Notes: generated by a model from the sequence alone, not told the origin. Positions 1,372 through 28,492 are shown, numbered from the stretch's first letter. The stretch: DNA of 32,000 bases from Planktothrix sp. GU0601_MAG3 (GCA_035193785.1 CP136572.1:2000627-2032626), one strand, 5' to 3'. A program made the numbers and translations.

Positions 1372-2146
1372 ATGAATTTCAACCGAATTTTTACCATTGC
1401 CAGTAACGTTTTTTTAGAAGTAGTTCGCGACCGCATTCTTTATATTATTGGTCTTTTCGCCTTATTTTTGATAGGTTCCATTCGTTTACTTCCTGAAGTT
1501 TCCGCCGGGTTAGAAAACAAAATAATCCTAGATTTTGGCATCGCCATGATTAGTTTATTTGGCCTACTAATTACAGTTTTTGTGAGTGCTAATTTGCTTA
1601 ACAAAGAAATTGATAAAAAAACGGTTTATCTCCTGGTTTCTAAACCCGTCAGTCCGGCGGAATTAATTATCGGAAAACACTTTGGTATCTCGGCTTTTAT
1701 TGCAGTTTTAATCTTGGTGATGACCCTGCTATTTTTTGGAATTCTTAGTTTCAATAAAATTTCCTACCCCTCCACCCCTCTCGGTATTGCTTTTATATTT
1801 ATGTGGCTACAACTCTCTTTAGTGGCGGCGGTTGGTATTTTATTAGGAGTCTTTACCAGTTTCCCTACTCGCAAGTTTATTAACCCTGGGAGTTTATGCA
1901 ATGGGAAGTTTAAGTCGTGACTTACTCGCCCTAGGAAAAATTAGCGAAAACCCCGCCTTAGAACAAATGATGAAAGCCACCTACATGATCTTACCCGATT
2001 TAGCGAGATTGGATTTAAAAAATGAAGCCGTTTATGGTTACTTACCCCCATCTTCAGTGTTAACGACTAATGGAATTTATGCTATCCTTTATATGGTTCT
2101 TCTATTATCCCTGTCCATTACGATTTTTTGGCAGAGAGAATTTTAG
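1372..2146 (+). CDS. ABC-2 type transporter permease (FraE/NosY-like), interrupted by a +1 frameshift
   Basis: ORFs 1372..1920 and 1901..2146 are two halves of one permease. Deleting one T in GTTTC at 1859..1863 gives the continuous sequence ...LLGVFTSSLLASLLTLGVYAMGSLSRDLL... Confidence 0.7.
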
Positions 2147-2177
2147 TTAAATTAGAGAATTAGGTTTAATTTCAACC

Positions 2178-3002
2178 ATGATAGCCCGAGAAAAACTACA
2201 ACAACTTCAAGCCCTATTTCAAGAAATGGAACGGGCATTAATCGCTTATTCTGGAGGAATAGATAGCACTTTGGTGGCTAAAATTGCTTATGATGTATTA
2301 GGAGAACAATCTTTAGCCGTAACCGCCGTTTCTCCCTCCCTATTACCCGAAGACTTAGAAGATGCTCGCATTCAAGCCGCCGAAATTGGGATTCAACACC
2401 AAGAAATTCAAACCCAAGAAATGGCTAATTCTAATTATACATCAAACCCAATTAATCGTTGCTATTTTTGCAAAAGTGAACTCCATGATAGCCTCAAACC
2501 CCTGGCTCAAAGCTGGGGTTATCCCTATATTGTTGATGGCGTGAATAGTGATGATTTACGCGACTATCGCCCAGGAATTCAAGCGGCAAAAGAACGAGGA
2601 GTTCGTTCACCTTTAGCGGAATTAGGGATTAGCAAAACTGAAGTCAGAGAAATTTCTAAATATCTCGGTTTAAAAGCTTGGGATAAACCCGCTCAACCCT
2701 GTTTAAGCTCCAGGTTTCCCTATGGAGAAGAAATTACAATTTCTAAATTACAACGGGTGGGTAGAGCGGAAGTATATTTGAGAAAATTAGGCTGGAAAAA
2801 TCTGCGAGTTCGTTCCGAGGGAGATACCGCCCGCATCGAATTATCCCCAGAGGAAATTAAAGACTTTGTATTGATGATTGAACTTCCCAAATTAGTACAA
2901 TCTTTCCAAGAATTTGGGTTTATTTATGTTACTTTAGACTTGGAGGGATATCGAAGCGGAAAACTCAATCAAGTCTTGCCTTCAGAATTAATTAGTACCT
3001 AA
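2178..3002 (+). CDS. larE: LarE-family ATP-dependent sulfur transferase (PP-loop ATP pyrophosphatase, TIGR00268-like)
   Basis: Contains the PP-loop SGGIDS, then RCYFCK, DYRPG, CLSSRFPYG and the C-terminal ARIEL...YVTLDLEGYRSGKLN, colinear with LarE. Confidence 0.85.
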   Translation: MIAREKLQQLQALFQEMERALIAYSGGIDSTLVAKIAYDVLGEQSLAVTAVSPSLLPEDLEDARIQAAEIGIQHQEIQTQEMANSNYTSNPINRCYFCKSELHDSLKPLAQSWGYPYIVDGVNSDDLRDYRPGIQAAKERGVRSPLAELGISKTEVREISKYLGLKAWDKPAQPCLSSRFPYGEEITISKLQRVGRAEVYLRKLGWKNLRVRSEGDTARIELSPEEIKDFVLMIELPKLVQSFQEFGFIYVTLDLEGYRSGKLNQVLPSELIST

Positions 3003-3125
3003 ATACCCTCTACTTTTGTGAACCATAAACCCCAATTATTAACCCGATAAAAGAGGTAAAATGATAGAGCATTGTGTGATTCAGATTGTCAAATCTCCAT
3101 TCATTGGAGATTAGGAGTGAAAAAT

Positions 3126-4641
3126 ATGGATATGGCCAATAGTTTCAACAAAAACATCGGAGATAAAAAGCATTTATTGAGTCAATTTAAACTCAGAACT
3201 CAGATGCTTTTTGGTTATGCAATTCCCGTTTTTATGTTTGCGGGTTCTACCTATATTGTTTATAGTAATGCCAATAAGGTATTTGAGGCATTTAATCAGG
3301 TAGAAAATGTCCAAAAAAGTATTATTGAAGTGGATAAAATGGCATTAGCGGGGAGTAATATGGTCGCCAATAGTCGGGGTTATATTATTTCTGAAGAATC
3401 GCAATTTTTAGAGTTATATCAACAAAGTTGGCAGAGTTTCCAGGAAGCTAGTAATACTCTGGATAATACGATTACTGTTCTCGAACAAAGACAACGATTT
3501 GAACAAATGAAAGAAATTGCAAAAAACTATAATCAATATCAAAATCAGTTAGCTAGTTTGTTGGGACAGGGAAAGAGAAAAGAAGCTTTAGAGCTTTTTA
3601 AAACTGGTATAGGTAGTAAACTTCTTTTAGATTTTTTAACCCTTAATTCTGACTTTAACAAGACAGAAATCACAAGACTGAATACAGAAAATCTTCAAGC
3701 TAGAAACACGCTACAAAATGCAATAAACTTATTGGTTTTGGGTTCCATTGTTTCCGCGTTAACCGCTTTTATTATTGCTTGGTTAATTTCTTCCTTAGTG
3801 AGCCGTAAAATTACTCAAGCCATTGATGCCATTGATAATTCTTCCTTAGAAATTAATATTGCCGTTGACCAACAGGAAAAAATCACCAGCAGTCAAGCGA
3901 GTTCGGTGAATGAAACGACTCGCACGATGGATGAATTAGAATTTTCGGCAACACAAGCCAGTGAAACAGGCGGAAACTTCAACATCAGGAGCCAGACAGG
4001 TTTTAAGCCTAGCAGAAAATGGTAATGAATTAGTTAAGCAAACTTTGCTAGAAATGAACCAAATGAAAGAAAAAGTTGAGGCTATCGCGGAACAAATTTT
4101 ACGCCTGAGTGAACAAACTAATCAAATTGGGAATATCTCCCAATTAGTAGGTGATTTAGCCAACCAAACCAATATGTTAGCACTCAATGCCGCCGTGGAA
4201 GCCGTCCGAGCCGGAGAATATGGAAAAGGGTTTTCGGTCGTGGCTTCAGAAATTAGAAAATTAGCCGATGAAAGTCAAAAATCCGCCCATCAAATTAATA
4301 ATTTAGTAATGGGAATTAAACAATCTAATAATTCGACCGGAGTAGTCACCGAAGCTGGAATTAAAAGTGTGGTAAATACCCTGGATTTAGCCCAAAAAAC
4401 CGCTTCTGCTTTTAACGATATGTCCATAGAACTGAGTAATATTGTTCAGAGTTCTCAGCAAATTTCATTAAATTCTAAACAGCAAGCCGTAGCAATTCAA
4501 CAGGTCGTTGTGGCGATGAATAATCTTAATAAAAATGCTCGGGATAGTAGTCTGGGTATGGGTCAAATTAAGCTCGGAATTCAAAAACTCAGTGATGCTG
4601 CTTTTGATTTAAAAGATATTGTCCAAGAAACATCAAAATAA
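3126..4641 (+). CDS. Methyl-accepting chemotaxis protein with an N-terminal CHASE3-like sensor, interrupted by a +1 frameshift
   Basis: ATG at 3126 is preceded by AGGAG. There is a TM helix, a periplasmic helical sensor, a second TM, then the MCP signalling hairpin ([40 protein letters not shown]). ORFs 3072..4025 and 3961..4641 join if one A is removed from GAAAC at 3963..3967 (or 3973..3977). Confidence 0.85.
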
Positions 4642-4690
4642 TCAGTCATCAGTTATCAGTTATCATTTATCAGTCATCAGTTATCAGTTA
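4642..4690 (+). repeat. Heptamer (STRR-like) tandem array, ATCAGTY x7
   Basis: Direct reading: atcagtc atcagtt atcagtt atcattt atcagtc atcagtt atcagtt, immediately after the MCP stop codon. Confidence 0.85.
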
Positions 4691-4740
4691 AAGAGTTAAA
4701 AATAAGTCACAGTTTTTTCAATTCGTAAAAATCTTAGCAG

Positions 4741-4790
4741 CCTGTTCTTTATTCCCTATTCCCTATTCCCTGTTCCCTATTCCCTTCCAT
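4741..4790 (+). repeat. Heptamer array TTCCCTA/TTCCCTG (reverse complement of GGGAATA)
   Basis: Reads cctgttctttattccctattccctattccctgttccctattccc, upstream of the hydrolase start. Confidence 0.75.
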
Positions 4791-4801
4791 AACCAAAAAA
4801 T

Positions 4802-6509
4802 ATGATTATTAAAGAAACAACTTCTCTAATTACCCGGGATGGAATTAGACTGGATGCGGATATTTATCGACCTGATACGGAGGAAAAATTACCCGTTTTA
4901 TTAATGCGACAACCCTATGGGAAAGCGATCGCTTCTACCGTTGTTTATGCCCATCCAAAATGGTATGCTAAACAGGGGTATATTGTAGTAATTCAAGATG
5001 TGAGAGGTCGGGGAACCTCGGAGGGCGAATTTAAACTTTTTACTAATGAAATAGAGGACGGGTTAGATACTATTAATTGGGTTGCTAATCTTCCCAATAG
5101 TAACGGTCAGGTGGGAATGTATGGATTTTCCTATCAAGGATTAACTCAAGTTTATGCTGCTTCCGGTCGCCCAAAAGCATTAAAAACTATTTGTCCGGCG
5201 ATGATGAGTCATAATTTATATGGGGATTGGGCCTATGAAGGGGGGGCTTTTTGTTTATATGCTAACTTAGGATGGGCGATTCAAATTTCCGCCGAAACAG
5301 CCCGATTAAAAGGGGATAAAATAGCCTATAATTCTCTGTATCAAGCCTCTCGAAATTTACCCTTTTTTGATTCTATTCCTGCTAGTCCAGATGTGTTGAA
5401 AATCTACGATTCAGATTCATTTTATCACGAATGGTTAGCCCATGATAAACCCGATGAATATTGGCAAAATCTATCTCCTAAATTAGATGATTTAGACTTA
5501 CCAATGCTGCATATTGGGGGATGGTTTGATACCTATTTAAGAGGAAACAATTAATTTTTATCAAGAAATGGTCAAGCGTAGTTGCTCCCCCCAATATTTA
5601 ATTGTTGGCCCCTGGGCGCATCTTCCCTGGGGGAGAAAGGTTGGGTCTGTGAATTATGGGTTGACCGCATCTAGCTTTATTGATAGCCTCCAAATTCAAT
5701 GGTTTGATACCTTTTTAAAAGGCAAAGAAAATACAATTTTTAATCAAAATCAGGTTTGTTTGTTTGAGATGGGAAGTCAAGAATGGCGGCAATTTAAACA
5801 ATGGCCTTCATCGCCCTCCCAGATTTATTATTTATCAACTAATGGGTTGGCAAATTTGCGAGAAGATGGGGGAATTTTGACGCCAATTTGTCCTGACAAT
5901 TCCCAAGAAGATGTCTTTGTTAATGACCCTTGGCGTCCGGTTCCCGCCCTCGGAGGTCACGCCATGTATCCCACGGGTTCCTTTGACCGTTCTACCTTAG
6001 ATTGTCGCAGTGATATTGTTACTTATACCTCGGAACCCTTGAGTCAAGATTTACATTTAGTGGGGGATTTAGCAGTAGAAATTTATTGTACAGCAGACAA
6101 ACCGACCTTTGATTTATCTGCGGTTTTATCAGAAGTTAAACCCGATGGAACTGTCTATAATTTTAGTCAAGGGTATCAACGATTTACTTCTGTTAAATCT
6201 AACACAAATAATGATTTTAGTCAAGATAAAAATATAAATTATTATCAAATTAAATTGCAGCCTACTTGTATTAAAATTCCTCAAAACCATTGTTTACGTT
6301 TAAGTATTAGTGGGGCTTGTTTTCCAGCTTATCCTGTTAACTCAGGAACGGAAAAACCCCTCAATCAAACCCATTTAATGGAGCAGGAAATTATCACGTT
6401 AACGATTCATTCTGGGGGTAATTTCCCCTCAAAAATTATACAGGGAACAGGGAACAGGCTGCGTCGTGAGCCTGTCGAACGAGAACAGGGAATAGGGAAT
6501 AGGGAATAG
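4802..6509 (+). CDS. CocE/NonD-family hydrolase (S15 X-Pro dipeptidyl-peptidase fold), interrupted by a +1 frameshift
   Basis: The N-terminus (DGIRLDADIYRP...PVLLMRQPYGK) and GMYGFSYQG nucleophile elbow are typical of CocE/NonD. ORFs 4802..5554 and 5568..6509 join as ...GWFDTYLRGTINFYQEMVKRS...GPWAH when one A is removed from GAAAC at 5544..5548. The C-terminal tail runs into a repeat array. Confidence 0.85.
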
Positions 6510-6572
6510 AGAATAGAGAATAGGCTGCGTCGTGAGCCTGTAGAACGAGAACCGGGAACCGGATTATCAAAT
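6430..6572 (+). repeat. Composite repeat: GGGAACA/GGGAATA/GAGAATA heptamers plus two copies of a ~31-bp unit (aggctgcgtcgtgagcctgtMgaacgagaac)
   Basis: The unit is seen at about 6456..6486 and 6523..6553, each with a small AGGCT...AGCCT hairpin. Heptamers lie between and around the units. Confidence 0.8.
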
Positions 6573-6612: not shown

Positions 6613-8879
6613 TTACGAAGGGGGGTTAGGGGGGTCAACTTTTAACAGCTTAATATTTTGATAAAGTTGATTCAGATATTTTTCAACCTCTGGAGGTTTA
6701 GCCGTAAACTCCACATAAAAAGCTCCCGGGTTCGCCGATTTTTCTAGGACTTTTGCATAAATATCATCACTCCATTGTTCTGATTCTAATTTAATATTAA
6801 GTTTTAAATTAGCCAACGCCCCAGGAATAATATTATTATTCGCCTCCATAACAATTAAACCTCTTTTTTCCGATAATTCCACCAAATTCCCCATTAAAAT
6901 ACTATCGCTGATATGTTTTCCTTCTAAAATAAAATATTGTAATAAAATGGGAGTAGGCATCGGATAAAAATGCTGTTCCTGTTTAGAAATAAACAGATTA
7001 TAGCTTCCGGCAATTCCCCCCACTTCATAAATAGTAATCGGCTTTTTAACTCCCTTGGGTTGAACTAATTTTTGATTTTCAATCTTAATTAAATTCCGAC
7101 CCGCTTGATTTAAGGTCATTTCAGAAACCAAGATTTGTCCAGCCGTTGTATAGGATTCAATCCGATAGGTTAAATTAACTTGACTTCCTACAACCCCATA
7201 TTTTGTGCGTTTTTCTGAACCAATATTTCCCACCACAACTTCCCCCGTATTAATCCCAATTCCCATGTCTAAAGGAGATAAATTCCACGTTTGTAATTGT
7301 TTCATTCACCTTCTCCATGGCTAATTGCATAGCTACCGCACAAGCAATCGCCCTTTGAGCATCATCTTCTCGCAAGGTAGGAGCACCAAATAAGACTAAA
7401 ATTCCATCCCCCATAAACTCATCAATAGTTCCTTGATAGAGAGTAATTACATCAGCCATGCAGGATAAATAAAAGTTTAAAATTTTAACCACTTCTTCCG
7501 GTTGTAAACGTTCTGAAAGGGCTGTAAATCCGCGTAAATCCGAGGTTAAAATGGTGATTTTTCGGCGTTCTCCCCCCAGTTTTAAACCTTCGGGTTTTTC
7601 TAATAAATTAGAAACAATTTCAGCACTCAAATAACGTCCAAAAATATTCCTAATATCCGAAGCCGAACGGGCAATATAAGCAGTAATGGCAATGGCCGAA
7701 CCCGCCAAAGCTAAAAAGGGAGGAACCACCGGAATCCACCATCCTTGGATAAAGAAAAGATAGGTACTTCCCAGTAAAATTCCCGTCGCTAAGATGAAAA
7801 TTGAAAACTGTCGAATAATTAATAATCGGACTGTAGCCGATGCTCTAAATTTCCAGGTTAAAATTGCTCCGGTTCCCGACCAAATAAATATCCAAATCCA
7901 TTCTAAAGTATCGGGTAACGTCTTAATTAACGGACGACTATCTAAGGCCGCACTAATAATTTGACTGGCAATATGAGCATGAACTTCTACCCCCGCCATC
8001 CGTTGATTAGCTGATAATGTATAGGGAGTAGACATTAAATCTTTGAAACTTTCCCCGACGGAACCGATTAAAATAATTCGATTTTCCCCCCAATCTTTAG
8101 GGAGTTTATCGGTTAAAATATCCCGAAAAGAAACAATCTCAAAACTGCGATTATATCCCCGATAATTTAAAAATATTTGATATCCTCCAGCATCAGCCCG
8201 CACATAGCCGCCATCATTTTTAGTCAAGGGTTGAAAAATAGTGTCTTTGAATTTCCACCAATTATTAGTTTCTGGAACAATTTCCGGTGAAATCCCTTGA
8301 GCGTCCAAATAAAACATGGCTAAAAATAAACCCAAACTGTAAATTGGTTGTTTTTGATCATTTTTAACCACTAATAACGCCCGTCGAATAATATTATCTT
8401 CATCTAAAATTAAATCATTGGCTGCTACTCGATTTTTTTCTTTTAAAATTGGAGGGGCGGCAACGGATTCTAAGGATTTATCCCCTACAACTTTTTCAAT
8501 TCCCAGTAAATTAGGAGTTTCTGCCAAGATTTTAATTAACTGTTCGTGACCGGGTTCAAAGGGTAAATCTCGATAAATGTCTAAGCCAATAACCGTAGGT
8601 TTCATGGCGACCAATTTCTCGATTAATTGAGCATAAATTTGGTCAGGGACATAACCTTGACCAATATATTTCATATCGGCTTCATCTAACCCTACAATTG
8701 CAATCCTTTTATCCCTAGGTTTCCGGGGGACGTAGACGCATATATTGGTCATAAACTGCCCATTCCCAGGACTGTAAAATCCCAGAAAAACGCAGTAGAA
8801 TTACTAAACCTGCCATGACTGGGGTTGTAATCCAAACACCACGCCACTCCCACACTAATTGTCTGGTTTTTGCCCTCAT
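6613..8879 (-). CDS. CHASE2 sensor-domain class III adenylate/guanylate cyclase with an extra C-terminal domain, interrupted by two +1 frameshifts
   Basis: The true N-terminus [53 protein letters not shown] starts at the ATG at 8879 and is too short for the ORF track. It joins [16 protein letters not shown]... after removing one base in GTTTC at 8719..8723. The CHASE2 region, 3 TM helices and cyclase core ([12 protein letters not shown]...[13 protein letters not shown]) join ...[33 protein letters not shown] after removing one base in GTTTC at 7299..7303. Confidence 0.85.
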
Positions 8880-13586: not shown

Positions 13587-13838
13587 AATTTAATTCCTGC
13601 TTAAACTCAATTTTTGAGGATCAGGTTGTTAAAAGTTTATGATCAATAATTATGATCAATAATAGGGATTATCTTACCCTGATCCGTGATCAAGAGTTTC
13701 TAATTATTGAAAGTTTCTCATTTTCTTCTTAACTTATGTTCACGATTCCTATTTTTTCTGCATCATTTCTGAGTTTCTCAACCTAATCGGGACTGGAAGC
13801 TAATTTTAAAGGGTTTCAGCGCTGGAGTTTCCCTAGTT

Positions 13839-14604: not shown

Positions 14605-16480
14605 ATGACTCCATCTAATCCAGAAGATAGTATAATTATGACTGAATCGACTCATCCCTATACTGCCCTGATCACCGAACTATATCAACAGGCGATTAAA
14701 TTTCAGGAAAGTGAGAATTTTGCCGAAGCGATCGCTTGTTACCAAAAACTAATTAATATTGAACCTAAATTAGTCTTAGGATATCAAAGGATTGGCAGTC
14801 TTTCCCTAAAAACCCAAGAATTTGAACAGGCAATTGCAGCTTATCAAAAATTAATTGAATTGAGTCCCAATGAATTTTGGGCTTATAATAATTTAGGAGA
14901 AGCATTGCTAAAATTAAAGCGATGGGAAGAAGCTATTCCTATTTATGAAAAAGCGATTGAAATAGACCCGAATTGCTTTTGGGGTTATAATAGTTTAGGG
15001 GAATGTTTAATCCAAACTGGACAACTAGAAAAAGCCGTCCCTATTTATCAAAAAGCTATTGAATTAGATCCTGAATTTTGGGGAGTTTATCAAAAATTAG
15101 CAGAGGCATTAACCACTTTAGAAAAATGGGAAGAATCCATACCCATCTACCGCCGGGCTATTGAATTAAAACCAGACTTTTTTTGGTCGTATGTAAGTTT
15201 AGGAAAAGCCTTAATTCAGTTAGAAAGATGGCAAGAGGCGATTCCCGTTTGTCAACAGGCGATTTCTATTGATCCTAGTTTCTTTTGGTCTTATATTAAT
15301 TTAGCCGATTCCCTATTTAATTTAGGAAGATGGCCAGAAGCCATTGAAGTTTATACCACAGCTAATCAAATTAAATCGGATTTCTTTTGGTCTTATAAAA
15401 ATTTAGGGGATGCCTTGATTCAATTGCAGCAATGGCAAGGTGCCATTCCGGTTTATCAACAAGCCTTAGAACTCAATTCCACTGAACCCTCATGCTATTA
15501 TAACCTAGGTTTAGCCTATCTCAATTTACAACAAAACCCCGATGCTATTTCTGCTTTTAAAACCGCTTTAAAACTGAATCCAGATTATAGTTTAGCTCAA
15601 AAAAAATTAGACGAAATTATCGTAATTGATTCTCCCCCATCCCCCCATCAACTCGAACCCATTGACTGGTTAAAATATTATCCTAAATCGGGACAAGCCC
15701 CCTCCTATTGTTTACCTAAAACCACAACTTTAGGCAAAAATCCCCAAACCGGAAAATGGCAATTTCCCGTTCCTCCTGAAGATTTGAGGTTAGTTTTTGT
15801 AGAGAATGAAGAATATTATCTCAACTCGGGGAAAACACAAGTTCAAGTCATGTTAAGTATCTTGCGAGAGTGTGGATATTTCCTCAAAACCGGAAGCCGA
15901 ATTTTAGATTTTGGTTGTGCATCGGGACGCATTCTTAGGGAGTTAGCTGATTTATCGGATATTTGTGAAATTTGGGGGACGGATATTAGTGCCGATTGTA
16001 TTGCTTGGTGTCAACAAAATATGAGTCCTCCCTTTCATTTTTTCGTCGGAAACAACCCTACCCCATTTACCCTTTGAAGACCGCTATTTTGATTTAATTT
16101 ATGCGGGTTCAGTCTTCACCCATATTGACGATTTAGCCGATGCCTGGTTGTTAGAACTCCGTCGGATTTTAAAACCCGGGGGACTGGCTTTTATTACGAT
16201 TCAAGAAAGTTATATTTTTGATAAAATTAAAGAATCTCCTGAAGTCTGGCTTTCTAATAATAATGTCTGGCCGCCCGAACAAAAGTTAGCCTGTATTCAG
16301 AACTATTTTGAATATATTAATCAAGATTTTGCCATGTTTACCCTAGGACGGGATACCCGGTCTTTGGTGTTCTATGACGTGAATTATTTCCGCGAAAAAT
16401 GGAAACCCTTTTTCCAAGTTTTAGCGGTTAAACAAGAAGCCTATTATTGGCAAACAGGAATTTTATTAAAGCGCCTTTAA
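14605..16480 (+). CDS. TPR-repeat protein fused to a class I SAM-dependent methyltransferase, interrupted by a +1 frameshift
   Basis: About 9 TPR units (AIxxYQKAIELxP with FWxYxxLG) are followed by the SAM motif ILDFGCASGRIL. ORFs 14593..16077 and 16148..16480 join as ...FHFFVGTTLPHLPFEDRYFDLIYAGSVFTHIDD... when one A is removed from GAAAC at 16049..16053. The ATG at 14605 is preferred over the GTG at 14593. Confidence 0.75.
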
Positions 16481-16704: not shown

Positions 16705-18899
16705 CTAATGAATTAACTCAATAGCTCGTTTCGTCAACGCTTCAGAAGTAATGCCATTAAATGCCATTAACTCCCCGGCACTGGCGGTGGTTTCGCCCCG
16801 TTTCCAAGCGAAAGTATCCCGATGAGAATTGCTGCGTAACATAATCGGTTCTAACATCAAACTAGAACCACCTGTTACTCCAATTAAGGCATCTCCAGCA
16901 AACAGTTGATTAAAGGTTTCATCACTGGCAAAATCGTTATCGGGTTCGGAACAAGTCTCGGATAAAACATCGTGAGAACGATATAAACGCCGAGGGTTAA
17001 TAATAGAAACAATTCGGACTCCAATCCCTTCAGTTTCCAAAAATGCCGCCGCTTCAAACACCGGAATTAAGGTCATATCCCCAATCACCGCAAACACAAC
17101 GGTTTTATCCCCTGGAACTTCCTGTAAGACCACCGCCCCATCTTTTAACCCTTGGCGAGTTTGCTCAAACGTCGTGCGGATGGGCAAGGGGGACTTACTG
17201 GCGGTAATAATAATGCTCTTGTTTTTGGTATTTAAAGCCCAGTCGTAGCATACTTGAATGCTGTTGGCATCGGGAGGAAACACCGGGAAAACATTGCCAC
17301 TGCGCATCATCGCGGCAAAATAGGCCTCAATTTCGGGCCGTTGGTGTGTCCAACCATTGCGACCCTGTTCCAACGCTCCGGCGGTGAATAAACACACCGT
17401 TGAGGGGGTGGCCCGCCGTAACTCGGCCATGGCTTGGGCGACGGTTTGCAAAACTGGCACACCGTTAATCGCAAAAGACTCGTAGGAAACACCATAAAGT
17501 TCGGGCTCCTAATAGGGATAATCCCACCGCTAACCCGGCACAAGCATCCTCACTTAAGGGTTCATAAACTTGCCCCTGGGGTTGTTGGAAATAAATATTA
17601 TCCGTTGTCGGGTGAATAATCTTTAATCCTTGGTTAATATTGTTAATTCCAGAAGCCGCATTTCCATCAGCATTGGTCACAATAAAATGGGGATCTTTTT
17701 GCCCAACATGAACAACTAACGCCCCCATTGCGGTTGTGGAAACCTTGGGATCTCCGCCAACTGGATATTCTTCTAGGGGTAATTCTCCCAGATCCGCTAA
17801 AGGATAATCAAACTCAGTGACAACGGTTTTGGCTGCTGGGCCACCACTGGAGCGTTCTAAATTTGTCCGCACTAATTCCCAAGCCGCCACAGGTAAGGCC
17901 CGTTCTTTTAAAGCGTTAATAATATGGGGACTATCTAGGGTATCTCCCGGATAAAGGTTGTGGGATTTTGCTCCGAGGGCGTGAACTCCGGCGCCTTTTA
18001 ATTGTTTAATAATAAACACGGTTAATTGACCCCCCAAAGCCAATTTTGCCGCCTTATCCATGGCGACTAAAATGGCTTGGGTAAATTCAATTCGTTTGTT
18101 AATAGAAAAGGCGGTACTATCAACATAATCACCCGGTTGATTCTGATCATCAAAATCCTTAGCATTAACTAAAATTACTTCTGAAAATCCATTTCCTTTC
18201 CAGTAAGCAATCATTTCTGCATTGGTTTTCGTGGAAACCATACTATGATGCTCTTGACTATAACCATTCCAGACCAACACAGGCAAGAAATTAGTCACTT
18301 CTGGATAGGCGGTGTGGAAGTGCATCATGCTACTCATGGGGTAGGGTTCGCCCATGCCCCCATCGCCGAGAGTGAAGGGAAATAGGACATTTCGGTGTAA
18401 CAGGGCGGCGGCCATGGCAAAATGTTGTCCCTGTCCCAAGGGCCCGGCGGGGTTGAGCAGACCGGGAATAAAGCCGGAAAGGTGGCCAAGCAGTCCATGT
18501 TTTTCGCGGAAGCGATCGCGCAATTGTTGGACGGTCACAATGCCCATATCTTCTAGGGAGCGATCCAAGAAACACCGCACTGTAAAACCCTGGCGCATGG
18601 TGTCCCACTTCCGTCATAATATTCTTATGGCCCAGCATCACCAAGGCGGCATAAGCTTCGACACTGGAGGCAAATCCCCCCGGGTGTCCCGAGGCTTTGC
18701 TGGCGGTGATTTGTAAGGTTAAATACCGCAGGGCATCGGCATACAGCAGGGTTTGATAGGCGGCTTTAGTATCATGGGCATCGGCAATTGAGGCAGTATT
18801 TTCAGCAATAATTGGGCTATTCCCATAGTGGTCAAATTCAGGAAAACTGTCTTTAAAATACTGAATTCCTTGACAAAATTCTGGTATTGTTGTTGTCAT
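16705..18899 (-). CDS. Phosphoketolase-family thiamine-diphosphate enzyme (divergent class), interrupted by two +1 frameshifts
   Basis: Contains the TPP-enzyme motifs SGHPGGF and LGDGGMGEP...LPVLVWNGYSQ, plus GRNGWTHQRPE (compare the Xfp NGFSHQDPG). The three ORFs join as ...FYSAVFLDRSLEDMG... (remove one base of GAAAC at 18569..18573, + strand) and ...GARTLWCSYESFAINGVPVLQT... (GAAAC at 17486..17490). Confidence 0.8.
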
Positions 18900-20965: not shown

Positions 20966-22310
20966 ATGGTCAAAAGTGTTGAGGAAATTTTAGACTTAAC
21001 GGAAGCGTTGATTATTGCTAACGGAAAAAAACCGCTGAGTTATATTCAGAAAGTTATTTTAAAAGAAGCGTTATTAGAAACAAAAAAAACCTACGATCAA
21101 ATTGCTGAAGACAATGGCTATTCTCCCAATTATTTAAAAAATGGAGTCGCCCCGCACCTCTGGCAACTTTTATCGGATGTGGTGGGCGAAAAAGTGACTA
21201 AGGCTAATTGCCACTGTTTATTAAGACAGGAATTAAATTATCAAGATATCCCTAAAATTATTCCAGAATTTGTTTTTCCTAAAGCAAATTTTTTAGAATC
21301 TCCAGAAGGCCAAGTTCCGCTTGATTCTATTTTTTATATTGAGCGATCGCCCATTGAATTAACCTGTTATCAAGAGATTCAAAATCAAGGAGCATTACTG
21401 CGAATTAAAGCCCCTAGAAAGATGGGTAAAACCTCCTTAATGGCTCGAATTTTAGATCACGCTCAACAGCAAGGTTATCATCCCGTTCGTTTAAGTCTCC
21501 ATCTTGCCAGTAGTTTAGTCTTTACCTCAACGGAAAAATTCTTACGTTGGCTTTGTGCTAATGTAGCTCAACAGTTGGAATTAGAATCTAAAATAGATGA
21601 TTTTTGGGATGAAGATGTAGGAACATTAGTCAGTAGTTCTCTGTATTTTCAAGGGTATTTATTAGAATTAATTAAAGAACCGATTGTTTTAGCTATTGAT
21701 GAAGTTAATCAATTATTTGAGTATCCTTCCTTAGCCCGGGATGTCTTGGCTTTATTAAGATCTTGGCATGAAGAAACCCGAGATATTAGCAATTGGAAAA
21801 AATTAAGGTTTGTGATTGTCTATTCAACGGATATTTATATCCCCTTAGATACAAATAAATCTCCATTTAACGTCGGTTTAGGAGTTGATTTACTGCCTTT
21901 TAATATTAGTCAAATTGAAACTCTAGCGCAACGATATGGATTAAAATTAATGGATAAAGAGTTAAAAAAATTTACAGAATTTATTGGAGGATTTCCTTTT
22001 TTAGCAAGATTAGCCTTTGATCATTGTGTGCGTCGTAATATTCCCCTCCCAGAGTTACTAAAACAAGCCATCAGTGATACAGGAATTTATGCCGATCATC
22101 TCCACGAACAGTTATGGTTACTTGAGCAAGACCCCGATTTAGTCACCGCCTATCAACAAGTTATTAGTACAAATCAACCTATCAAAATTGAACATGTGAA
22201 AGCGTTTAAATTAAAAAGTATGGGATTGGTTTCATATTGATGGAAATTCAGTTATTCCCAGTTGTGAGTTATACCGTCAATATTTTCAGGAGTATTTTAG
22301 GGAAGTTTGA
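20966..22310 (+). CDS. AAA-like domain ATPase (PF14516-type) with an N-terminal helical/HTH-like module; the C-terminus is cut by a +1 frameshift
   Basis: Walker A is APRKMGKTSL and Walker B is VLAIDEV. The ORF stops at 22240, but deleting one T from GTTTC at 22229..22233 extends it to ...SMGLVHIDGNSVIPSCELYRQYFQEYFREV* (stop at 22308..22310). Confidence 0.7.
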
Positions 22311-22362: not shown

Positions 22363-22368
22363 TAGGGA

Positions 22369-23545
22369 TTAATTTCTTAATTGTACAGGCATCACCAAAT
22401 ATGTCATTTTTATCCCACCCAAAGGATTAACAATAACTGGAGTAGTGGCGGCATTCAATTGCAGGGAAACTTCCGAGGTATTAAATACTTTTAAACCCTC
22501 TAATAAGTATTTAACATTAAATGCTAATTCCTTGGGTTCCTCCCCAGAAATTTGAGCGGGGAGAGATTCCAAAGCATTACCAACATCGGCGGCTTCTACG
22601 GATAAAGCAATTTGTTGATTAACATGATCAATGCTACATTTGACAATATCATTCTTTTGAGAAGCTAAAACCGCAATCCGTTCTAGGGCACCGATAAAGC
22701 CCCGCCGATCTAAGTTAATTTGATTGACAAATTGATGGGGAATTAACTGTTGATAAGCCGGATATGCCCCTTCTAATTTGCGAGTATTAAGTCTTTGTTC
22801 CCCCAGTTCAAAAATTACTTGACTCTCATCAAATCGCAACGTAATAATAACCGGAGAATCGTCTTTAGAGCCACCGTGGGTATCAACAGTTCGCATCGCC
22901 ACCATGCGTTCCACTTCCCTTAAAGCCCGGGCTGGAACTGTTACCTCAAATTCCTCTAATTCATCATCGGGATCGGTTTCGCTTAGATTTTCTGTTTGCA
23001 CAACTGCTAATCTATGACCGTCCGTTGAAGCAAATTCAATCGTATTATTTTGAACTTTTAAATGCACTCCAGTTAAAACCTGTTTAGTTTCATCGGAAAC
23101 TTGTAGCAAATAACGTCCCCTTCAATCCCGAAATTAAAGATTCCGCCGCCAAATGAATAGAATCGCCCGTTTGAATAGCAGGTAATTCGGGATATTCTTC
23201 CGCCGCCATACCTCGAACTTGATATTTTCCTGAACTAGAAGTTAAATTAACAATTGCTTCCCCAACTTGATCATCAATGGTAATTTCTCCCCCGGGTAAA
23301 CGGGAGACAATATCATTAAATAATTTAGCTGGGACAGTTAAGGTTCCTCCCTCCGTGACCGTCGCCTGCATACTCGCCCGAATCCCCAAACTTAAATCAA
23401 ATGCAGTTAAATTTAACCGTTGATTTTCCTCATCAGCATCAATTAAAATATTAGATAAAATTGGATGATTCGGACGGGATGGAATCGCCCTAGATACCCA
23501 AGATAAATTAGAACTTAATTTGTCCTGTTCAACAATAAATTTCAT
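22369..23545 (-). CDS. dnaN: DNA polymerase III beta sliding clamp, interrupted by a +1 frameshift
   Basis: The ATG at 23545 lies 6 nt after GGAGG. It encodes MKFIVEQDKLSSNLSWVSRAIPSRPNHPILSNILI.... The halves join as ...LKGTLFATSSDETKQVLTGVHLKV... when one base of GAAAC (23096..23100, + strand) is removed. Confidence 0.9.
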
Positions 23546-23655
23546 AGTTAACCTCCATTGGTATGTGTTAGCATAATCATAATGCCGACAATTTCTAACA
23601 TTCACGAGAGAAACGAACCCCTAATTATAACCTAGAAATCCCTCGATATCCTTAG

Positions 23656-24127
23656 CTATAGAATCTTCTGCATTAACAAAGATTGAGGTTGATAACCCAA
23701 TTTCTGATAGAGATTGAGAGCGGGTTGGTTATTCGTGAAAACCTGTAGACTCATTTTGCGATCGCCCCGTCCCGTGGCCCACCGTTGAGCATGGGCCATT
23801 AAAGCTGAACCAATACCCTGTTTTCGGTGTTCTGGTGCCACATACAACAAAAAAACATGGGCAGTGCGTTCTCCGTCGGCCAAATCAATCGCATTACCTA
23901 ACCATAAACAAGCTATCGGTTCGGGGCGGTGGTCTGGGTAGAATTTATCCACCCACCACAAAGGGGTTTGAGGCGAAAAATACTGCTCAACAGTTAGGGC
24001 GAGATGGCTTAAATCTTGATCAGGGAATTGTTCCTTATAGGTTTCTATATACAAACTTGAGTAATAAAGCCCGATCTAAACGTGACCCCTGGCGCAAATG
24101 ATAACCGGGGATAAAAACTTCAGACAC
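23656..24127 (-). CDS. GNAT-family N-acetyltransferase, N-terminus displaced by a +1 frameshift
   Basis: Acetyl-CoA motif RKQGIGSALM...NNQPALNLYQKLGY. An upstream segment from the GTG at 24127 (VSEVFIPGYHLRQGSRLDRALLLKFVYR) joins TYKEQFPDQDL... after removing one T of GTTTC at 24041..24045. The exact start codon is uncertain. Confidence 0.7.
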
Positions 24128-24299: not shown

Positions 24300-24349
24300 A
24301 ATCAGTTATCGGTGATCAGTAAACAGTTATCAGTGTAAGAGTTGTCAGT

Positions 24350-25717: not shown

Positions 25718-25833
25718 AATTTTCTGATAACTAATAACTGGTACGGGTGCGCCAATAGCCTAACGAGATTGCGCTTTGCTAAGGTGCGTCTAACCACTGA
25801 TAACTGATAACTGTTTACTGATAACTGAATTAA

Positions 25834-27160
25834 ATGACTTCTATCCTCGTTAAACCATCTTTGCCTCGACCGATCAATACCCCCACTGTTCATCAACTCT
25901 CCAATGGTCTGACCATTGTGGCAGAACAGTTAGCCGTTGATGCGGTAAATCTCAATGTTTGGATTAATATTGGTTCGGCCATTGAATCCGATGATATCAA
26001 CGGTATGGCGCACTTTTTAGAACATATCGTTTTTAAAGGCACACCCCATCTGCAAATCGGCGAATTCGAGCAAAAAATCGAACAGCGGGGCGCGGTCACC
26101 AATGCGGCAACCAGTCAGGACTATACCCATTATTACATCACCACCGCCCCCCAGGACTTTGCGGATTTAGCTCCCCTACAGTTTGATGTGGTACTCAATG
26201 CCAGTGTGGCGGATGAAGCCTTTGAACGGGAGAGATTTGTCGTCTTAGAAGAAATTCGTCGGGCGGAAGATAACCCAGGTCGGCGTTTCCTTCCGTCAGT
26301 CCATGGAAATCGCCTTTGAGCAACTCCCCTATCGTCGTCCAGTTTTGGGGCCAGCATCGGTGATTGAGCAGTTACAATCCCAACAAATGCGGGACTTCCA
26401 TCGCACCTGGTATCAGCCCCGCTCCATGACCGTCGCCGTGGTGGGTAATTTACCCGTGGAAACTCTGATCCAAACGGTAGAAAATGCCGTTAGCTCCGTT
26501 TATCCCGCCTCCTCGATGGCTTCCGCCCTGCCGGAACTCCAACCCTGGACTCCTGAAGCGAGTTTTCAGGAAATTGTCCGTCAAGAAATTATTGATGATA
26601 CCTTGGAACAAGCCCGATTATTGATGTTGTGGCGTGTACCCGGTTTAGCAGAACTCCCTCAAACCTATCCTTTGGATATTTTAGCCCATATTTTGGGCCA
26701 AGGAAGAACCGCACGACTATTCCAAGATCTACGGGAAAATCGCGGGTTAGTTTCGTCGATTTCTGCGAGTAATATGACCCAGCGTTGGCAGGGGGTATTT
26801 TATATTTCAGCCCGTTTACCCGCAGAGAATTTAGCTCTAGTTGAAGAAATTCTCACCGATCATATTCGTCAAATCCAAAGCGAATTAATTACCGAAGATG
26901 AAATTGCCAAAGTTAGGATGCAGGTGGCAAATCGGTTTATCTTTGGCAATGAAACCCCTAGCGATCGCGCTGGGTTGTATGGATACTATCAATCTCTGGT
27001 GGGGGATTTAACTGCGGGTCTCCATTACCCCGATCATATTCAAGGTTTGAGTTCAGAAACCGTTCAACAGGCAGCACAACAGTATTTGTCTCCCAATGCC
27101 TATGGAATTGTGATTTTAAAACCTTCCTTAAACAGTCATCAGTCATCAGTTAACAGTTAA
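25834..27160 (+). CDS. M16 (pitrilysin/insulinase) family zinc peptidase, interrupted by a +1 frameshift
   Basis: Has the inverted zinc motif HFLEH, with the downstream E in EEIRRAED. The halves join as ...EDNPGRRSFRQSMEIAFEQLPYRRPVLG... after removing one T of GTTTC at 26285..26289. The C-terminal tail (SHQSSVNS) reads into heptamers. Confidence 0.85.
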
Positions 27161-27200
27161 CAGTTAACTGTTAAACAGTTATCAGTTAAACAGTTATCAG
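27127..27200 (+). repeat. Heptamer array CAGTCAT/CAGTTAA/CAGTTAT
   Basis: Reads cagtcatcagtcatcagttaacagttaacagttaactgttaaacagttatcagttaaacagttatcag, spanning the M16 stop codon. Confidence 0.8.
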
Positions 27201-27462
27201 TAAAATTACCTTCCCTGAATTCAAGAAAACCCAGAGTTGGGAAGTTTCTGGGGACTAATAATGGTAAAATCGTGAAACGCTTATATTGTAGGCGTCATCG
27301 CCTTCTAAAGTGATAAGGTTTAAGGGCAAAAACCGCTTGATTTTTATTGGGTTTTGTGGGTTAACCCCAATAATGTATCCAAATTTTTCCCAAATCTCGG
27401 TAAAATTGTCCTGACAACTTTGATCCCCATGTTTTTTGAGTCATTGGTGAGAATTAGCCTCT

Positions 27463-28492
27463 ATGAAACTACAAGATTTTCTCGGTAAAAATACTCGATA
27501 TGATATTAAAGGCATTTCTGAAGATGACGAACTTTCCCGTCAAATTCAGACCCGACTAATTGATTTAGGACTGCTTGATCCCCCTGTGGATGGGATTTTT
27601 GGCCCCAAATCAACGGCGGCATTACACCAATTTCAGAAGTTGATGGAGTGTGGTGAAGCGGGTTATCTGGGCGCGGTGACGGCGAAAAAGCTCACGGAAA
27701 CCAAACGAGAACAAATTCCCGTAGCCACCCCAATTCTGAAAACCGTTAAAAGTACAGTTTTTAAAGTTAAACCCATTGCTTCTTCTCAACTCAATGACTC
27801 GGAAAAATTTACGATTCCCGCCAATAAAGAATTTAGTGTTTTAGCCTACGATCCCATTCGTGGACATTTACGAGTCGCTTTACGCACCGAATCCTACGGA
27901 GGATATTCGGTCTTATATATCTGGGGAGAACACGCTGAAATTTATGAAAATGGGAGTCGGGTTTATCCTAAACCGATTCCTCCGAGTTTCCGGCTCAATG
28001 TTCCCTATAAATCTCAATTGGATAACTGGTTTAATCCAACAGGTTTCCTGTAATGTCACTTCCATCGCCATGTGTTTGGAATACCTTAAAGCCCGTCGCA
28101 AAACCAATTCCGGCCAGTTGGAAGATGAACTCTATGAATATGCTATCAATAAAGGCTACAGTCGCCATAACCCCAACGATTTAGCTCGAATTGTTCGAGA
28201 TTATGGTTGTCAGGATTATTTTACCGAAAATAGCACAATAGATGATGTCAAAGATTGGATTGCGGCTGGAAATCCCGCCGTAATTCATGGATATTTTACC
28301 TCCTTTGGTCATATCATGCCTGTGGTGGGTTATGACGAATATGGATTTATTGTCCATGATCCCTATGGAGAATGGTTTTCCTCCGGTTATCGCACGGATT
28401 TAAGTGGGTCTTATTTGAATTATTCCTATCTATTGATCCGCCGGGTTTGCATCCCTGATGGTACTTTTTGGGTGCATTTTATTTCTAAGTAG
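27463..28492 (+). CDS. Peptidoglycan-binding domain protein fused to a C39-like (papain-fold) peptidase domain, interrupted by a +1 frameshift
   Basis: The N-terminal PG_binding_1-like repeat is LIDLGLLDPPVDGIFGPKSTAALHQFQ. The halves join as ...NVPYKSQLDNWFNPTGSCNVTSIAMCLEYL... (candidate catalytic Cys) after removing one T of GTTTC at 28043..28047. A His context GHIMPVVGYDE lies downstream. Confidence 0.75.

What the first reader, a model, noticed from the sequence alone, without database searches (positions are those of the whole stretch)
1859..28047. Thirteen +1 frameshifts in eleven genes, every one at a GAAAC/GTTTC pentamer
Eleven otherwise well-conserved genes are split into overlapping or adjacent ORFs. 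In each case the reading frame and a homolog-like junction peptide are restored by deleting one A (or T) from G-AAA-C (or G-TTT-C). The sites are: 1859-1863 (ABC-2 permease); 3963-3967 (MCP); 5544-5548 (CocE/NonD); 7299-7303 and 8719-8723 (CHASE2 cyclase); 16049-16053 (TPR-methyltransferase); 17486-17490 and 18569-18573 (phosphoketolase); 22229-22233 (AAA-like ATPase); 23096-23100 (dnaN); 24041-24045 (GNAT); 26285-26289 (M16 peptidase); 28043-28047 (C39-like peptidase). A possible 14th lies at 13773-13777 (FecR-like). All are +1 (one extra base). They occur on both strands and in all three codon phases, and they hit an essential gene (dnaN). That argues against both real pseudogenisation and programmed ribosomal frameshifting. 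It favours a DNA- or data-level, sequence-context-specific event: either a GAAC to GAAAC homopolymer over-call (flow-based or nanopore chemistry, possibly modification-linked) or, less likely, a real slippage hotspot. The pentamer is also the arm of this genome's dispersed GAAACCNGGTTTC palindrome, which may be coincidence. Any annotation of this genome that ignores the pattern will fragment or truncate roughly one gene in three.
Basis: seen in the sequence. Interest (0 to 1): 0.75.

Follow-up and report, generated by a model that had tools for sequence, protein, structure and literature searches.

The report
Motif-specific false frameshifts in HiFi assembly
About a third of the genes in this Planktothrix-like cyanobacterial contig look broken only because the PacBio HiFi reads carry one spurious extra A/T at roughly 5% of GAAC/GTTC sites, an organism-specific error that probably reflects a chemical modification of the DNA at that motif.

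Summary
All 14 pentamers sit at the stated coordinates. Deleting one base in each fuses the split ORFs into full-length genes.

- **Relatives:** at 11 of the 13 firm sites, DNA of related Planktothrix genomes or contigs has exactly one base fewer, usually GAAC/GTTC.
- **Flanks:** five more such sites lie in the 19 kb either side of the window.
- **Specificity:** no frame-breaking indel falls in any other context. About 5% of GAAC/GTTC sites are hit, with no longer motif. Both sense orientations and all codon phases occur.
- **Source:** the window comes from GCA_030545275.1, a PacBio Sequel II HiFi metagenome assembled with hifiasm-meta. An independent k-mer assembly of the same reads is identical, so the extra base is in the reads.
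- **Same-run control:** only this cyanobacterial MAG has an inflated gene count (5,913 CDS against about 4,300 in reference genomes). The five other MAGs from the run look normal.

Best reading: these are read-level artefacts, not mutations or recoding, caused by a native modification on both strands at GAAC/GTTC. Dnd phosphorothioation (GpsAAC/GpsTTC, known to modify only part of its sites) is the leading candidate but is unproven. I could not show dnd genes in this genome, and dnd-positive E. coli assemblies show no such errors.

The parts
1859..1863 (+). GTTTC with one spurious T. It splits the ABC-2 permease into 1372-1920 and 1901-2146.
   Evidence: Three metagenome relatives have GTTC here. 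The Pfam ABC2_membrane_2 match runs 44-252 across junction residue 164.
3963..3967 (+). GAAAC with one spurious A. It splits the CHASE3-MCP gene into 3126-4025 and 3961-4641. A second GAAAC at 3973 lies in the same zone.
   Evidence: ORF fusion to 504 aa. The junction lies between Pfam domains. The gene is absent from the available relatives, so 3963 versus 3973 is unresolved.
5544..5548 (+). GAAAC with one spurious A. It splits the S15/CocE-NonD hydrolase into 4802-5554 and 5568-6509.
   Evidence: The permissible zone is only 15 bp. Relatives have GAAC. The Peptidase_S15 match runs 13-274 across residue 249.
7299..7303 (-). GTTTC (sense strand GAAAC) with one spurious base. It splits the CHASE2 adenylate/guanylate cyclase into 6613-7305 and 7250-8752.
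   Evidence: ORF fusion. The Guanylate_cyc match runs 439-617 across residue 526. No relative DNA covers this site.
8719..8723 (-). GTTTC (sense strand GAAAC) with one spurious base. It cuts the N-terminal 54 aa (8715-8879) off the same CHASE2 cyclase.
   Evidence: PCC 11201 has GTTC. The CHASE2 match runs 24-339 across residue 53.
13773..13777 (+). Probable 14th site. A frame break sits between the ATG at about 13736 (MFTIPIFS...) and the FecR-like ORF 13839-14513. The extra base is in GTTTC or is the following T.
   Evidence: PCC 11201 encodes one continuous ORF of the same length. BLAST places the gap one base after the pentamer.
16049..16053 (+). GAAAC with one spurious A. It splits the TPR-methyltransferase into 14605-16077 and 16148-16480.
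   Evidence: PCC 11201 has one base fewer (GCAC). ORF fusion to 624 aa. The same base is present in the Logan contig of the raw reads.
17486..17490 (-). GAAAC (sense strand GTTTC) with one spurious base. It splits the phosphoketolase into 16705-17460 and 17465-18598.
   Evidence: All 7 relatives have GAAC. The repaired 730-aa protein matches relatives over residues 1-730 at 96-98% identity.
18569..18573 (-). GAAAC (sense strand GTTTC) with one spurious base. It splits the phosphoketolase into 17465-18598 and 18330-18899.
   Evidence: All relatives have one base fewer, at a variable third-codon position. The match over residues 1-730 is continuous.
22229..22233 (+). GTTTC with one spurious T. 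It truncates the C-terminus of the AAA_35/HTH ATPase (20966-22240; 447 aa once repaired).
   Evidence: Three relatives have GTTC and one has GCTC.
23096..23100 (-). GAAAC (sense strand GTTTC) with one spurious base. It splits dnaN into 22369-23109 and 23090-23545.
   Evidence: Two relatives have GAAC and one has GGAC. The DNA_pol3_beta_2 match runs 133-262 across residue 150.
24041..24045 (-). GTTTC (sense strand GAAAC) with one spurious base. It removes the N-terminus of the GNAT acetyltransferase (called as 23656-24054, 132 aa).
   Evidence: Relatives have GTTC and a GNAT of 162-164 aa.
26285..26289 (+). GTTTC with one spurious T. It splits the M16 peptidase into 25834-26319 and 26303-27160.
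   Evidence: Relatives have GTTC. The repaired protein is 95% identical over 99% of its length to the intact 436-aa P0001. The Peptidase_M16 match runs 34-173 across residue 152.
28043..28047 (+). GTTTC with one spurious T. It splits the PG-binding/C39-like peptidase into 27463-28053 and 27860-28492.
   Evidence: Relatives have one base fewer (GCTC or GATC) and an intact 342-aa gene, the same length as the repaired ORF. The Peptidase_C39_2 match runs 178-301 across residue 195.

Best explanation
The frameshifts are not in the organism's genome. They are systematic one-base over-calls (AA read as AAA, TT read as TTT) in the PacBio HiFi consensus reads, at about 5% of GAAC/GTTC sites of this one cyanobacterium.

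Shown:
- The extra base is absent from every relative.
- It is present in the bulk of the reads, not added by the assembler.
- It is confined to the 4-bp context G-AA-C.
- It hits a minority of sites, with no longer motif.
- It is independent of gene strand and codon phase, and it also occurs outside confirmed genes.
- It tracks one organism among six in a single sequencing run.

Inferred:
- The native DNA of this organism carries a modification at GAAC/GTTC on both strands.
- Every polymerase pass re-reads the same modified template, so the kinetic disturbance repeats and the errors are correlated across passes and strands. Slowed incorporation opposite the A or T next to the modified position would give a duplicate pulse of the same base. 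The consensus then confidently calls an extra A/T.
- Only sites modified in most genome copies reach the majority and survive read correction and assembly. That would explain the roughly 5% penetrance.

Leading candidate for the modification: Dnd-type phosphorothioation, GpsAAC/GpsTTC. This is exactly that motif, it is bistranded, and it is known to modify only a fraction of its sites. I put about 0.9 on 'artefact', about 0.65 on 'modification-linked' and about 0.35 on 'phosphorothioate specifically'.
For: Source and same-run control.
- The window is GCA_030545275.1, contig JAULAM010000015.1.
- The published method is Sequel II HiFi with hifiasm-meta. MAG3 (Planktothrix/Oscillatoria-like) has 5,913 CDS against 4,275-4,328 in reference genomes, and BUSCO 95.9%. 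The other five MAGs, including a 32% GC Flavobacterium, have BUSCO 100% and normal CDS counts.
- The excess of about 1,600 CDS in 5.1 Mb matches the observed density of about 1 site per 3 kb.

Read level. Logan k-mer contigs of the same run are 100% identical over 16.4 kb, including five sites.

Relatives. They lack the extra base at 11 window sites and 2 flank sites. One of these (-240) lies in a 46-aa ORF with no Pfam match, possibly non-coding.

Specificity and penetrance.
- 17 affected sites against 360 unaffected GAAC/GTTC sites in 51.3 kb, with no significant flanking preference.
- 10 of 178 sites (5.6%) where a relative has the 4-mer and the window keeps the motif.
- No frame-breaking insertion was seen at GAAAAC or at any other A3/T3 context.

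Orientation. Both sense orientations and all three codon phases occur.

Phosphorothioate literature.
- GpsAAC/GpsTTC is the Dnd motif in E. coli B7A, S. enterica and R. anatipestifer.
- Only 4,855 of 40,701 sites are modified in B7A.
- Modification is partial per molecule.
- Phosphorothioate alters SMRT polymerase kinetics (review PMC6435447).
- dnd clusters are common in Cyanobacteriales. [quoted passage not shown]
Against: - No read-level or kinetic data could be examined.
- No orthogonal sequencing of this strain exists in the collections: the exact repaired proteins are absent.
- I could not show dnd genes in this genome.
- No paper was found reporting HiFi insertions at phosphorothioate or any other modified motif.
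- In dnd-positive E. coli RefSeq complete genomes (207 of 5,426), the listed rows at 99.9% identity or above (66 distinct records, counting those shown in both listings once) all span the 5,063-bp dndBCDE cluster, which has 28 GAAC/GTTC sites, with no length change. Phosphorothioate of this motif therefore does not visibly corrupt those assemblies. The test is weak: platforms are unknown, RefSeq removes heavily frameshifted assemblies, and per-site occupancy in E. coli is reported to be low.
- Phosphorothioate is described as a modest kinetic signal (my own recollection). A majority insertion call is therefore not an obvious consequence.
- BUSCO 95.9% is higher than one might expect if a third of genes are split.
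Confidence: 0.62

Rival explanations
1. A generic PacBio chemistry or ccs-software context error at GAAC, unrelated to any modification. It would surface in this genome for a trivial reason such as coverage or composition.
For: The error is in the reads. HiFi errors are known to be mostly homopolymer indels (established knowledge). No modification has been demonstrated.
Against: - Five other MAGs of the same library and run, including a 32% GC Flavobacterium rich in such sites, show BUSCO 100% and normal CDS counts.
- Longer runs are spared. There are about 162 true GAAAC sites and many A5-A9 runs in 51 kb, yet no frame-breaking GAAAAC or long-run error. At a rate of 4.5% or more, about 7 would be expected at GAAAAC alone.
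- The 3.5-Mb contig argues against low coverage.
Confidence: 0.2
2. A native modification other than phosphorothioate at GAAC/GTTC causes the over-call. Candidates are a bulky 7-deazaguanine-type replacement of the 5' G on both strands, or an unknown adduct.
For: The same evidence as for the modification-linked reading. Both strands of the motif begin with G. Phosphorothioate-positive E. coli assemblies show no comparable error.
Against: No such modification is known to me with a GAAC/GTTC motif and partial occupancy, whereas phosphorothioate has exactly these properties. A slowed step opposite a modified G would be expected to duplicate G/C rather than A/T (inference).
Confidence: 0.12
3. The insertions are real mutations: recent pseudogenisation, or a GAAC-specific insertion hotspot in a mutator or polyploid population.
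For: The reads consistently carry the base. Cyanobacteria are polyploid (established knowledge).
Against: - About 12 of roughly 31 genes are hit, including dnaN and argC.
- All events are +1 and all fall in one 4-bp context.
- No relative shares any break.
- Downstream frames are fully open and 90-98% identical to intact homologs, with no secondary decay.
- The organism grew in enrichment culture.
Confidence: 0.04
4. Programmed recoding restores the proteins: +1 ribosomal frameshifting or transcriptional slippage at GAAAC/GUUUC.
For: A recurrent short motif sits at every break.
Against: - The motif is on the sense strand as GAAAC in 8 cases and as GUUUC in 8. It occupies all three codon phases.
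- One site lies in a short ORF of doubtful coding status.
- A3 is far too short for slippage.
- Relatives encode the same proteins without any shift.
Confidence: 0.01

Closest known systems
Dnd DNA phosphorothioation with the GpsAAC/GpsTTC consensus (E. coli B7A, Salmonella enterica Cerro 87, Riemerella anatipestifer)
   Same: - Identical 4-bp complementary motif.
- Both strands involved.
- Only a minority of sites affected (12% in B7A, about 5% here), with no longer consensus.
- Organism-specific.
- dnd genes are reported in the genus Planktothrix and widely in Cyanobacteriales.
   Different: Here the motif is seen only as a base-calling error, not as a kinetic or chemical phosphorothioate signal. 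dnd genes are not shown in this genome. No report was found that phosphorothioate causes HiFi insertions, and dnd-positive E. coli assemblies show none.
Modification-linked systematic base-calling errors in nanopore assemblies (for example at Dam/Dcm-type motifs), which need homology-based or short-read polishing
   Same: Motif-specific, organism-specific errors that survive consensus because every read of native DNA carries the same disturbance. They inflate pseudogene counts (own knowledge; the Homopolish abstract on uncorrected systematic errors).
   Different: The platform here is PacBio HiFi, where such errors are not generally expected. The error is a pure +1 insertion in a 2-base run rather than mostly substitutions.
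Homopolymer-length miscalls of flow-based (454, Ion Torrent) and PacBio reads
   Same: One extra copy of a repeated base, producing frameshifts that split genes.
   Different: Ordinary homopolymer errors grow with run length and do not depend on both flanking bases or on the organism. Here only G-AA-C is hit, and longer runs are spared.
Programmed +1 ribosomal frameshifting (for example prfB)
   Same: A +1 shift at a recurrent short sequence inside otherwise intact genes.
   Different: There is no fixed codon phase and no sense-strand consistency. It affects a third of all genes and one locus of doubtful coding status, and it is absent from orthologs.

Membership tests
Sequencing or consensus artefact (systematic context-specific over-call) | The extra base is absent from independent sequences of close relatives at every site. 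| tested here: met
   11 of 13 window sites and 2 flank sites have one base fewer in 3-7 relatives each.
Sequencing or consensus artefact (systematic context-specific over-call) | Repair restores full-length, conserved proteins with no other decay. | tested here: met
   ORF fusion. Pfam domains run across the junctions. The phosphoketolase matches over residues 1-730 at 98%. M16 is 95% identical over its full length.
Sequencing or consensus artefact (systematic context-specific over-call) | The event is independent of gene strand, codon phase and coding status. | tested here: met
   8 and 8 sense orientations; phases 6, 9 and 1. Site -240 lies in a 46-aa ORF with no Pfam match.
Sequencing or consensus artefact (systematic context-specific over-call) | The extra base disappears with an orthogonal chemistry or a modification-free template. 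| not testable with these tools
   Only one HiFi run exists. The exact repaired proteins are not in the 15-billion-protein collection.
Dnd/Ssp/BREX-4 phosphorothioate modification | dndBCDE (or ssp/brx phosphorothioate synthesis) genes are present in the genome. | tested here: inconclusive
   None in the 51 kb examined. No cyanobacterial DndC seed could be obtained to search further. The literature lists dndB, C, D and E in P. agardhii NIVA-CYA 126/8.
Dnd/Ssp/BREX-4 phosphorothioate modification | A short bistranded consensus, GAAC/GTTC for the B7A/Cerro 87 type. | tested here: met
   All 17 sites reduce to GAAC/GTTC, with no extended motif. This is indirect: the motif of an error, not of a measured modification.
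Dnd/Ssp/BREX-4 phosphorothioate modification | Only a fraction of consensus sites is modified. | tested here: met
   4.5% (17 of 377) and 5.6% (10 of 178), against 12% in B7A. Again indirect.
Dnd/Ssp/BREX-4 phosphorothioate modification | A chemical or kinetic phosphorothioate signal: iodine cleavage, d(GpsA)/d(GpsT) by LC-MS/MS, or an interpulse-duration signature. | not testable with these tools
   No access to reads, kinetics or DNA.
Programmed ribosomal frameshift or transcriptional slippage | A slippery motif on the sense strand, in a fixed codon phase, conserved in orthologs. | tested here: not met
   Mixed orientation and phase. Orthologs are unshifted.
Genuine pseudogenes or genome decay | Breaks are shared with relatives, or are accompanied by stops, deletions and relaxed conservation. 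Essential genes are spared. | tested here: not met
   No shared breaks. dnaN and argC are hit. Fragments are 90-98% identical to intact homologs.
Phase variation by slipped-strand mispairing | Long simple-sequence tracts in contingency genes, with both +1 and -1 changes. | tested here: not met
   The tract is 2 to 3 bases. All events are +1. The genes are housekeeping as well as accessory.

The most novel reading that the evidence does not exclude
The false frameshifts are a footprint of heavily occupied phosphorothioate (GpsAAC/GpsTTC) sites in a bloom-forming Planktothrix. That would mean two things. First, native backbone modification can defeat PacBio HiFi consensus and silently fragment about a third of the genes in public HiFi genomes and MAGs of phosphorothioate-bearing organisms. 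Second, the error positions give a ready-made genome-wide map of about 1,600 high-occupancy sites, which as far as I know would be the first such map for a cyanobacterium.
Probability: 0.33. Interest if true: 0.65.

Novelty: not a real feature. Interest (0 to 1): 0.45.

Why it matters
Practical side.
- This public assembly, and any annotation derived from it, has on the order of 1,600 false gene breaks. The published count is 5,913 CDS against about 4,300 expected.
- dnaN, argC, the phosphoketolase and others are deposited as fragments. These fragments are already in protein databases.
- The breaks can be repaired by rule: remove one base at GAAAC/GTTTC wherever the frame breaks.

Methodological side.
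- If the cause is a native modification, HiFi reads are not uniformly trustworthy on native bacterial DNA.
- In that case an excess of motif-specific frameshifts could serve as a flag for unusual DNA modification in metagenomes.

Tried and rejected
**1. Looking for an independent copy of this strain.** Eight repaired proteins were looked up by exact sequence, and none is in the collection.

**2. Looking for dnd genes in this genome.**
- None lies in the window plus 10 kb on each side.
- The 'dndC' on plasmid NC_013792.1 from the Jian et al. dataset is a solitary PAPS-reductase-family gene, scoring below the TIGR03183 cut-off.
- tblastn of the plasmid collection found true DndC genes, but none on a cyanobacterial plasmid.
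- A Chlorohelix DndC query against the 5.8-billion-protein set returned Chloroflexota. Cluster names for ten large clusters were Poribacteria and Terriglobales.
- The PDB holds no DndC relative.

**3. Testing whether GAAC-type phosphorothioate corrupts other assemblies.**
- 207 dnd-positive E. coli RefSeq genomes were found.
- No length change was seen in dndBCDE in the listed rows.
- The result is inconclusive, because platforms are unknown and RefSeq filters out heavily frameshifted assemblies.

**4. Literature.** I found no report of HiFi insertions at phosphorothioate or other modified motifs. Cao et al. 2014 is not held.

**5. A longer recognition motif (Type I or Type III-like).** Rejected: no flanking position is significant after allowing for multiple tests.

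**6. A link to the GAACC-N-GGTTC-like palindromes.** Rejected: GAAACCNGGTTTC is genuine in relatives.

**7. False positives from the ORF-fusion scan.** Candidate zones at 32275-32454 and 40202-40484 lie inside intact DnaJ and acetyl-CoA synthetase genes, so I treated them as false positives.

Full report
**What is there**

The window is 39.6% GC and contains 55 GAAAC and 70 GTTTC. Each lies at or next to a junction between same-strand ORFs. Deleting one base from each turns the fragments into single long ORFs:

| Gene | Repaired ORF |
|---|---|
| ABC-2 permease | 257 aa |
| MCP | 504 aa |
| S15/CocE | 568 aa |
| CHASE2 cyclase | 754 aa |
| TPR-methyltransferase | 624 aa |
| phosphoketolase | 730 aa |
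| AAA_35 | 447 aa |
| DnaN | 391 aa |
| M16 | 441 aa |
| C39-like | 342 aa |
| GNAT | longer N-terminus |
| FecR-like | longer N-terminus |

An unbiased scan for places where a one-base deletion joins two ORFs of at least 70 aa recovered the same zones. The joint probability that all 13 zones contain a pentamer by chance is about 3e-9.

**Origin of the sequence**

An intact 909-aa protein of the window is encoded on GCA_030545275.1, contig JAULAM010000015.1 (3.54 Mb). It is also on a Logan contig assembled from run SRR25183167.

The data paper (PMC10720407) describes an enrichment culture from the Han River. It was sequenced on PacBio Sequel II in HiFi mode and assembled with hifiasm-meta. Its MAG3 matches the window:
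- 16S rRNA 99.1-99.4% identical to Planktothrix/Oscillatoria.
- 5.1 Mb, 40.5% GC.
- BUSCO 95.9%.
- 5,913 CDS, against 4,275-4,328 in the three reference genomes.

The other five MAGs of the same run have BUSCO 100% and CDS counts like their references. They include a 32% GC Flavobacterium.

**Comparison with relatives**

A scan of species-representative genomes with the repaired phosphoketolase gave Planktothrix sp. PCC 11201, P. paucivesiculata PCC 9631 and five MAGs. All carry an uninterrupted gene matching residues 1-730 at 93-98%. Pairwise DNA alignments run at 82-94% identity. The window has exactly one extra base at:

| Site | Relatives have |
|---|---|
| 8719 | GTTC |
| 16049 | GCAC |
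| 17486 | GAAC in all seven |
| 18569 | one base fewer, at a variable third-codon position |
| 22229 | GTTC or GCTC |
| 23096 | GAAC or GGAC |
| 1859 | GTTC (three JGI metagenome contigs) |
| 5544 | GAAC (same three contigs) |
| 24041 | GTTC; GNAT is 162-164 aa there against 132 here |
| 26285 | GTTC |
| 28043 | one base fewer; C39 gene 342 aa, equal to the repaired length |

The last three rows come from contigs encoding the closest M16 homologs.

Other points:
- Site 7299 is supported by one uninterrupted Guanylate_cyc match across the junction. Six other junctions are likewise bridged by single Pfam matches.
- Site 3963 has only ORF evidence, and a second GAAAC at 3973 lies in the same zone.
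- Site 13773 is a genuine frame break relative to PCC 11201. The extra base could also be the T after the pentamer.
- In all these alignments, no other frame-breaking single-base indel lies inside a gene.

**Beyond the window**

I extended the sequence 10 kb each way. This showed four more split genes, each repaired at a pentamer:
- argC at -9386
- an SDR at -8022
- a caspase-like C14 protein at -5057
- a Ser/Thr kinase at 39036

There is also a GAAAC against GAAC difference at -240, in a 46-aa ORF of doubtful coding status.

The density is about 1 site per 3 kb. It matches the published excess of about 1,600 CDS in 5.1 Mb, so the phenomenon is genome-wide.

**Properties of the event**
- Reduced by one A, all 17 sites read GAAC. 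No flanking position differs significantly from the 360 unaffected GAAC/GTTC sites in the same 51.3 kb, so penetrance is 4.5%.
- Of 178 sites where a relative has the 4-mer and the window keeps the motif, 10 (5.6%) are pentamers in the window.
- GAAAC makes up 10.6% of A3/T3 runs. All 17 falling there by chance has probability about 3e-17.
- Nothing happens at GAAAAC, at other flanks, or at the many longer A/T runs.
- On the sense strand the motif is GAAAC eight times and GTTTC eight times. Codon phases are 6, 9 and 1.
- The six GAAACCNGGTTTC palindromes are intergenic. Where relatives cover them they are ungapped, so they are real and unrelated.

**Where the error arises**

Three Logan contigs are an independent k-mer assembly of the same HiFi reads. 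They are 100% identical to the deposited contig over 16.4 kb and include five of the sites. The extra base is therefore in the majority of the CCS reads. It was not introduced by hifiasm-meta or by the authors' re-assembly.

**Interpretation**

Real mutation is very unlikely:
- Essential genes are hit.
- Every event is +1 and falls in one 4-bp context.
- No relative shares a break.
- The shifted downstream frames are intact and highly conserved.

Recoding is excluded by the strand and phase mix.

A generic HiFi context error does not fit the same-run controls or the sparing of longer runs.

What remains is an organism-specific property of the template DNA. The pattern is a 4-bp motif, complementary on the two strands, with a small fraction of sites affected and no longer consensus. 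This is the published signature of Dnd phosphorothioation:
- GpsAAC/GpsTTC, with 4,855 of 40,701 sites modified in E. coli B7A.
- Partial modification per molecule.
- Detectable through SMRT polymerase kinetics (PMC6435447).

dnd clusters without restriction partners are common in Cyanobacteriales. [quoted passage not shown]

The mechanism I propose is inferred, not shown. A modification next to the AA/TT run on both strands slows incorporation. The polymerase then emits a duplicate pulse of the same base on every pass of both strands, and the consensus calls AAA. Only sites modified in most genome copies become the assembled allele.

**Limits**

I could not demonstrate dnd genes in this genome. 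The route to a cyanobacterial DndC seed failed.

In E. coli, 207 of 5,426 RefSeq complete genomes carry dndBCDE. The cluster has 28 GAAC/GTTC sites, yet it shows no length change in the listed near-identical rows. This is weak evidence against a general phosphorothioate-to-HiFi effect:
- Platforms are unknown.
- RefSeq drops heavily frameshifted assemblies.
- Per-site occupancy in E. coli is reported to be low.

No publication describing such a HiFi artefact was found.

**Verdict**

I rate 'artefact' at about 0.9, 'caused by a native modification' at about 0.65, and 'phosphorothioate' at about 0.35.

Noticed in passing
window 9882-10382: A 61-bp unit is repeated 8.2 times in tandem (98% matches, no indels) between the DUF928 gene and a small GIY-YIG gene. 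Each unit contains a GTTC. No copy shows the extra T.
   Followed up: no
window 29513-29812 and 29886-30185: A tandem duplication of about 373 bp (300 nt at 98% identity) lies between the QRPTase and aldolase genes. Both copies align to one stretch of relative L101. A 49-bp insertion at 29447 carries an extra GAAACAGGGTTTC palindrome.
   Followed up: partly
window 16552, 16606, 22350, 29447, 29496, 29872: The GAAACCNGGTTTC palindrome (6-bp arms, 1-nt spacer) occurs six times, always intergenic. Where relatives cover it, it is conserved and ungapped. Its function is unknown, and it is not linked to the frameshift sites.
   Followed up: partly
window 24583-25605 (- strand): An IS200/IS605-type TnpB (OrfB_IS605, Cas12f1-like_TNB; 340 aa) sits between the GNAT and M16 genes. 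Relatives L101-L103 have these two genes adjacent without it, so it is a strain-specific insertion.
   Followed up: partly
window 3072-4641: The CHASE3-MCP gene is missing from the three otherwise syntenic metagenome relatives L088-L090. Their alignment jumps from 3037 to 4774.
   Followed up: no
window 4641-4690, 4750-4785, 6483-6524, 25796-25828, 27128-27205: Short heptamer tandem arrays (ATCAGTT, TATTCCC, GAATAGG, ACTGATA, AACAGTT) lie in intergenic spacers. They resemble cyanobacterial STRR repeats, and their copy number differs from relatives.
   Followed up: no
window 31803-31932: A C-rich, low-complexity repeat (CCCT / CCCCTACTC units) lies inside the DnaJ-domain gene, probably encoding a Pro-rich linker.
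   Followed up: no
L085:2076-3623 (window -7697 to -6150): A 515-aa N6_Mtase/Eco57I-type adenine methyltransferase gene lies 6 kb upstream of the window. It is a candidate source of other DNA modification in this organism, with no evident link to GAAC.
   Followed up: no
L109 (NZ_OL790696.1 in the plasmid collection): This PLSDB 'plasmid' record is a 4.8-Mb E. coli chromosome with almost no annotation. It carries a complete dndBCDE plus a dptH-like gene.
   Followed up: partly
L087:9175-10947 (NC_013792.1): The 'dndC' listed for Alkalihalophilus pseudofirmus OF4 in a published dnd survey is a solitary 590-aa PAPS-reductase-family gene on a plasmid. It has no dndB, dndD or dndE nearby and scores below the TIGR03183 cut-off. 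Relatives are widespread on Bacillus plasmids, including B. anthracis plasmids of about 182 kb.
   Followed up: partly
L106:4825-10966 (Ca. Chlorohelix allophototropha plasmid): The cluster is arranged dndB-dndC-dndD-dndE-dndB. The two DndB copies match the dndB count of 2 reported for P. agardhii and Limnospira/Arthrospira, though some listed Nostocaceae have 1.
   Followed up: no
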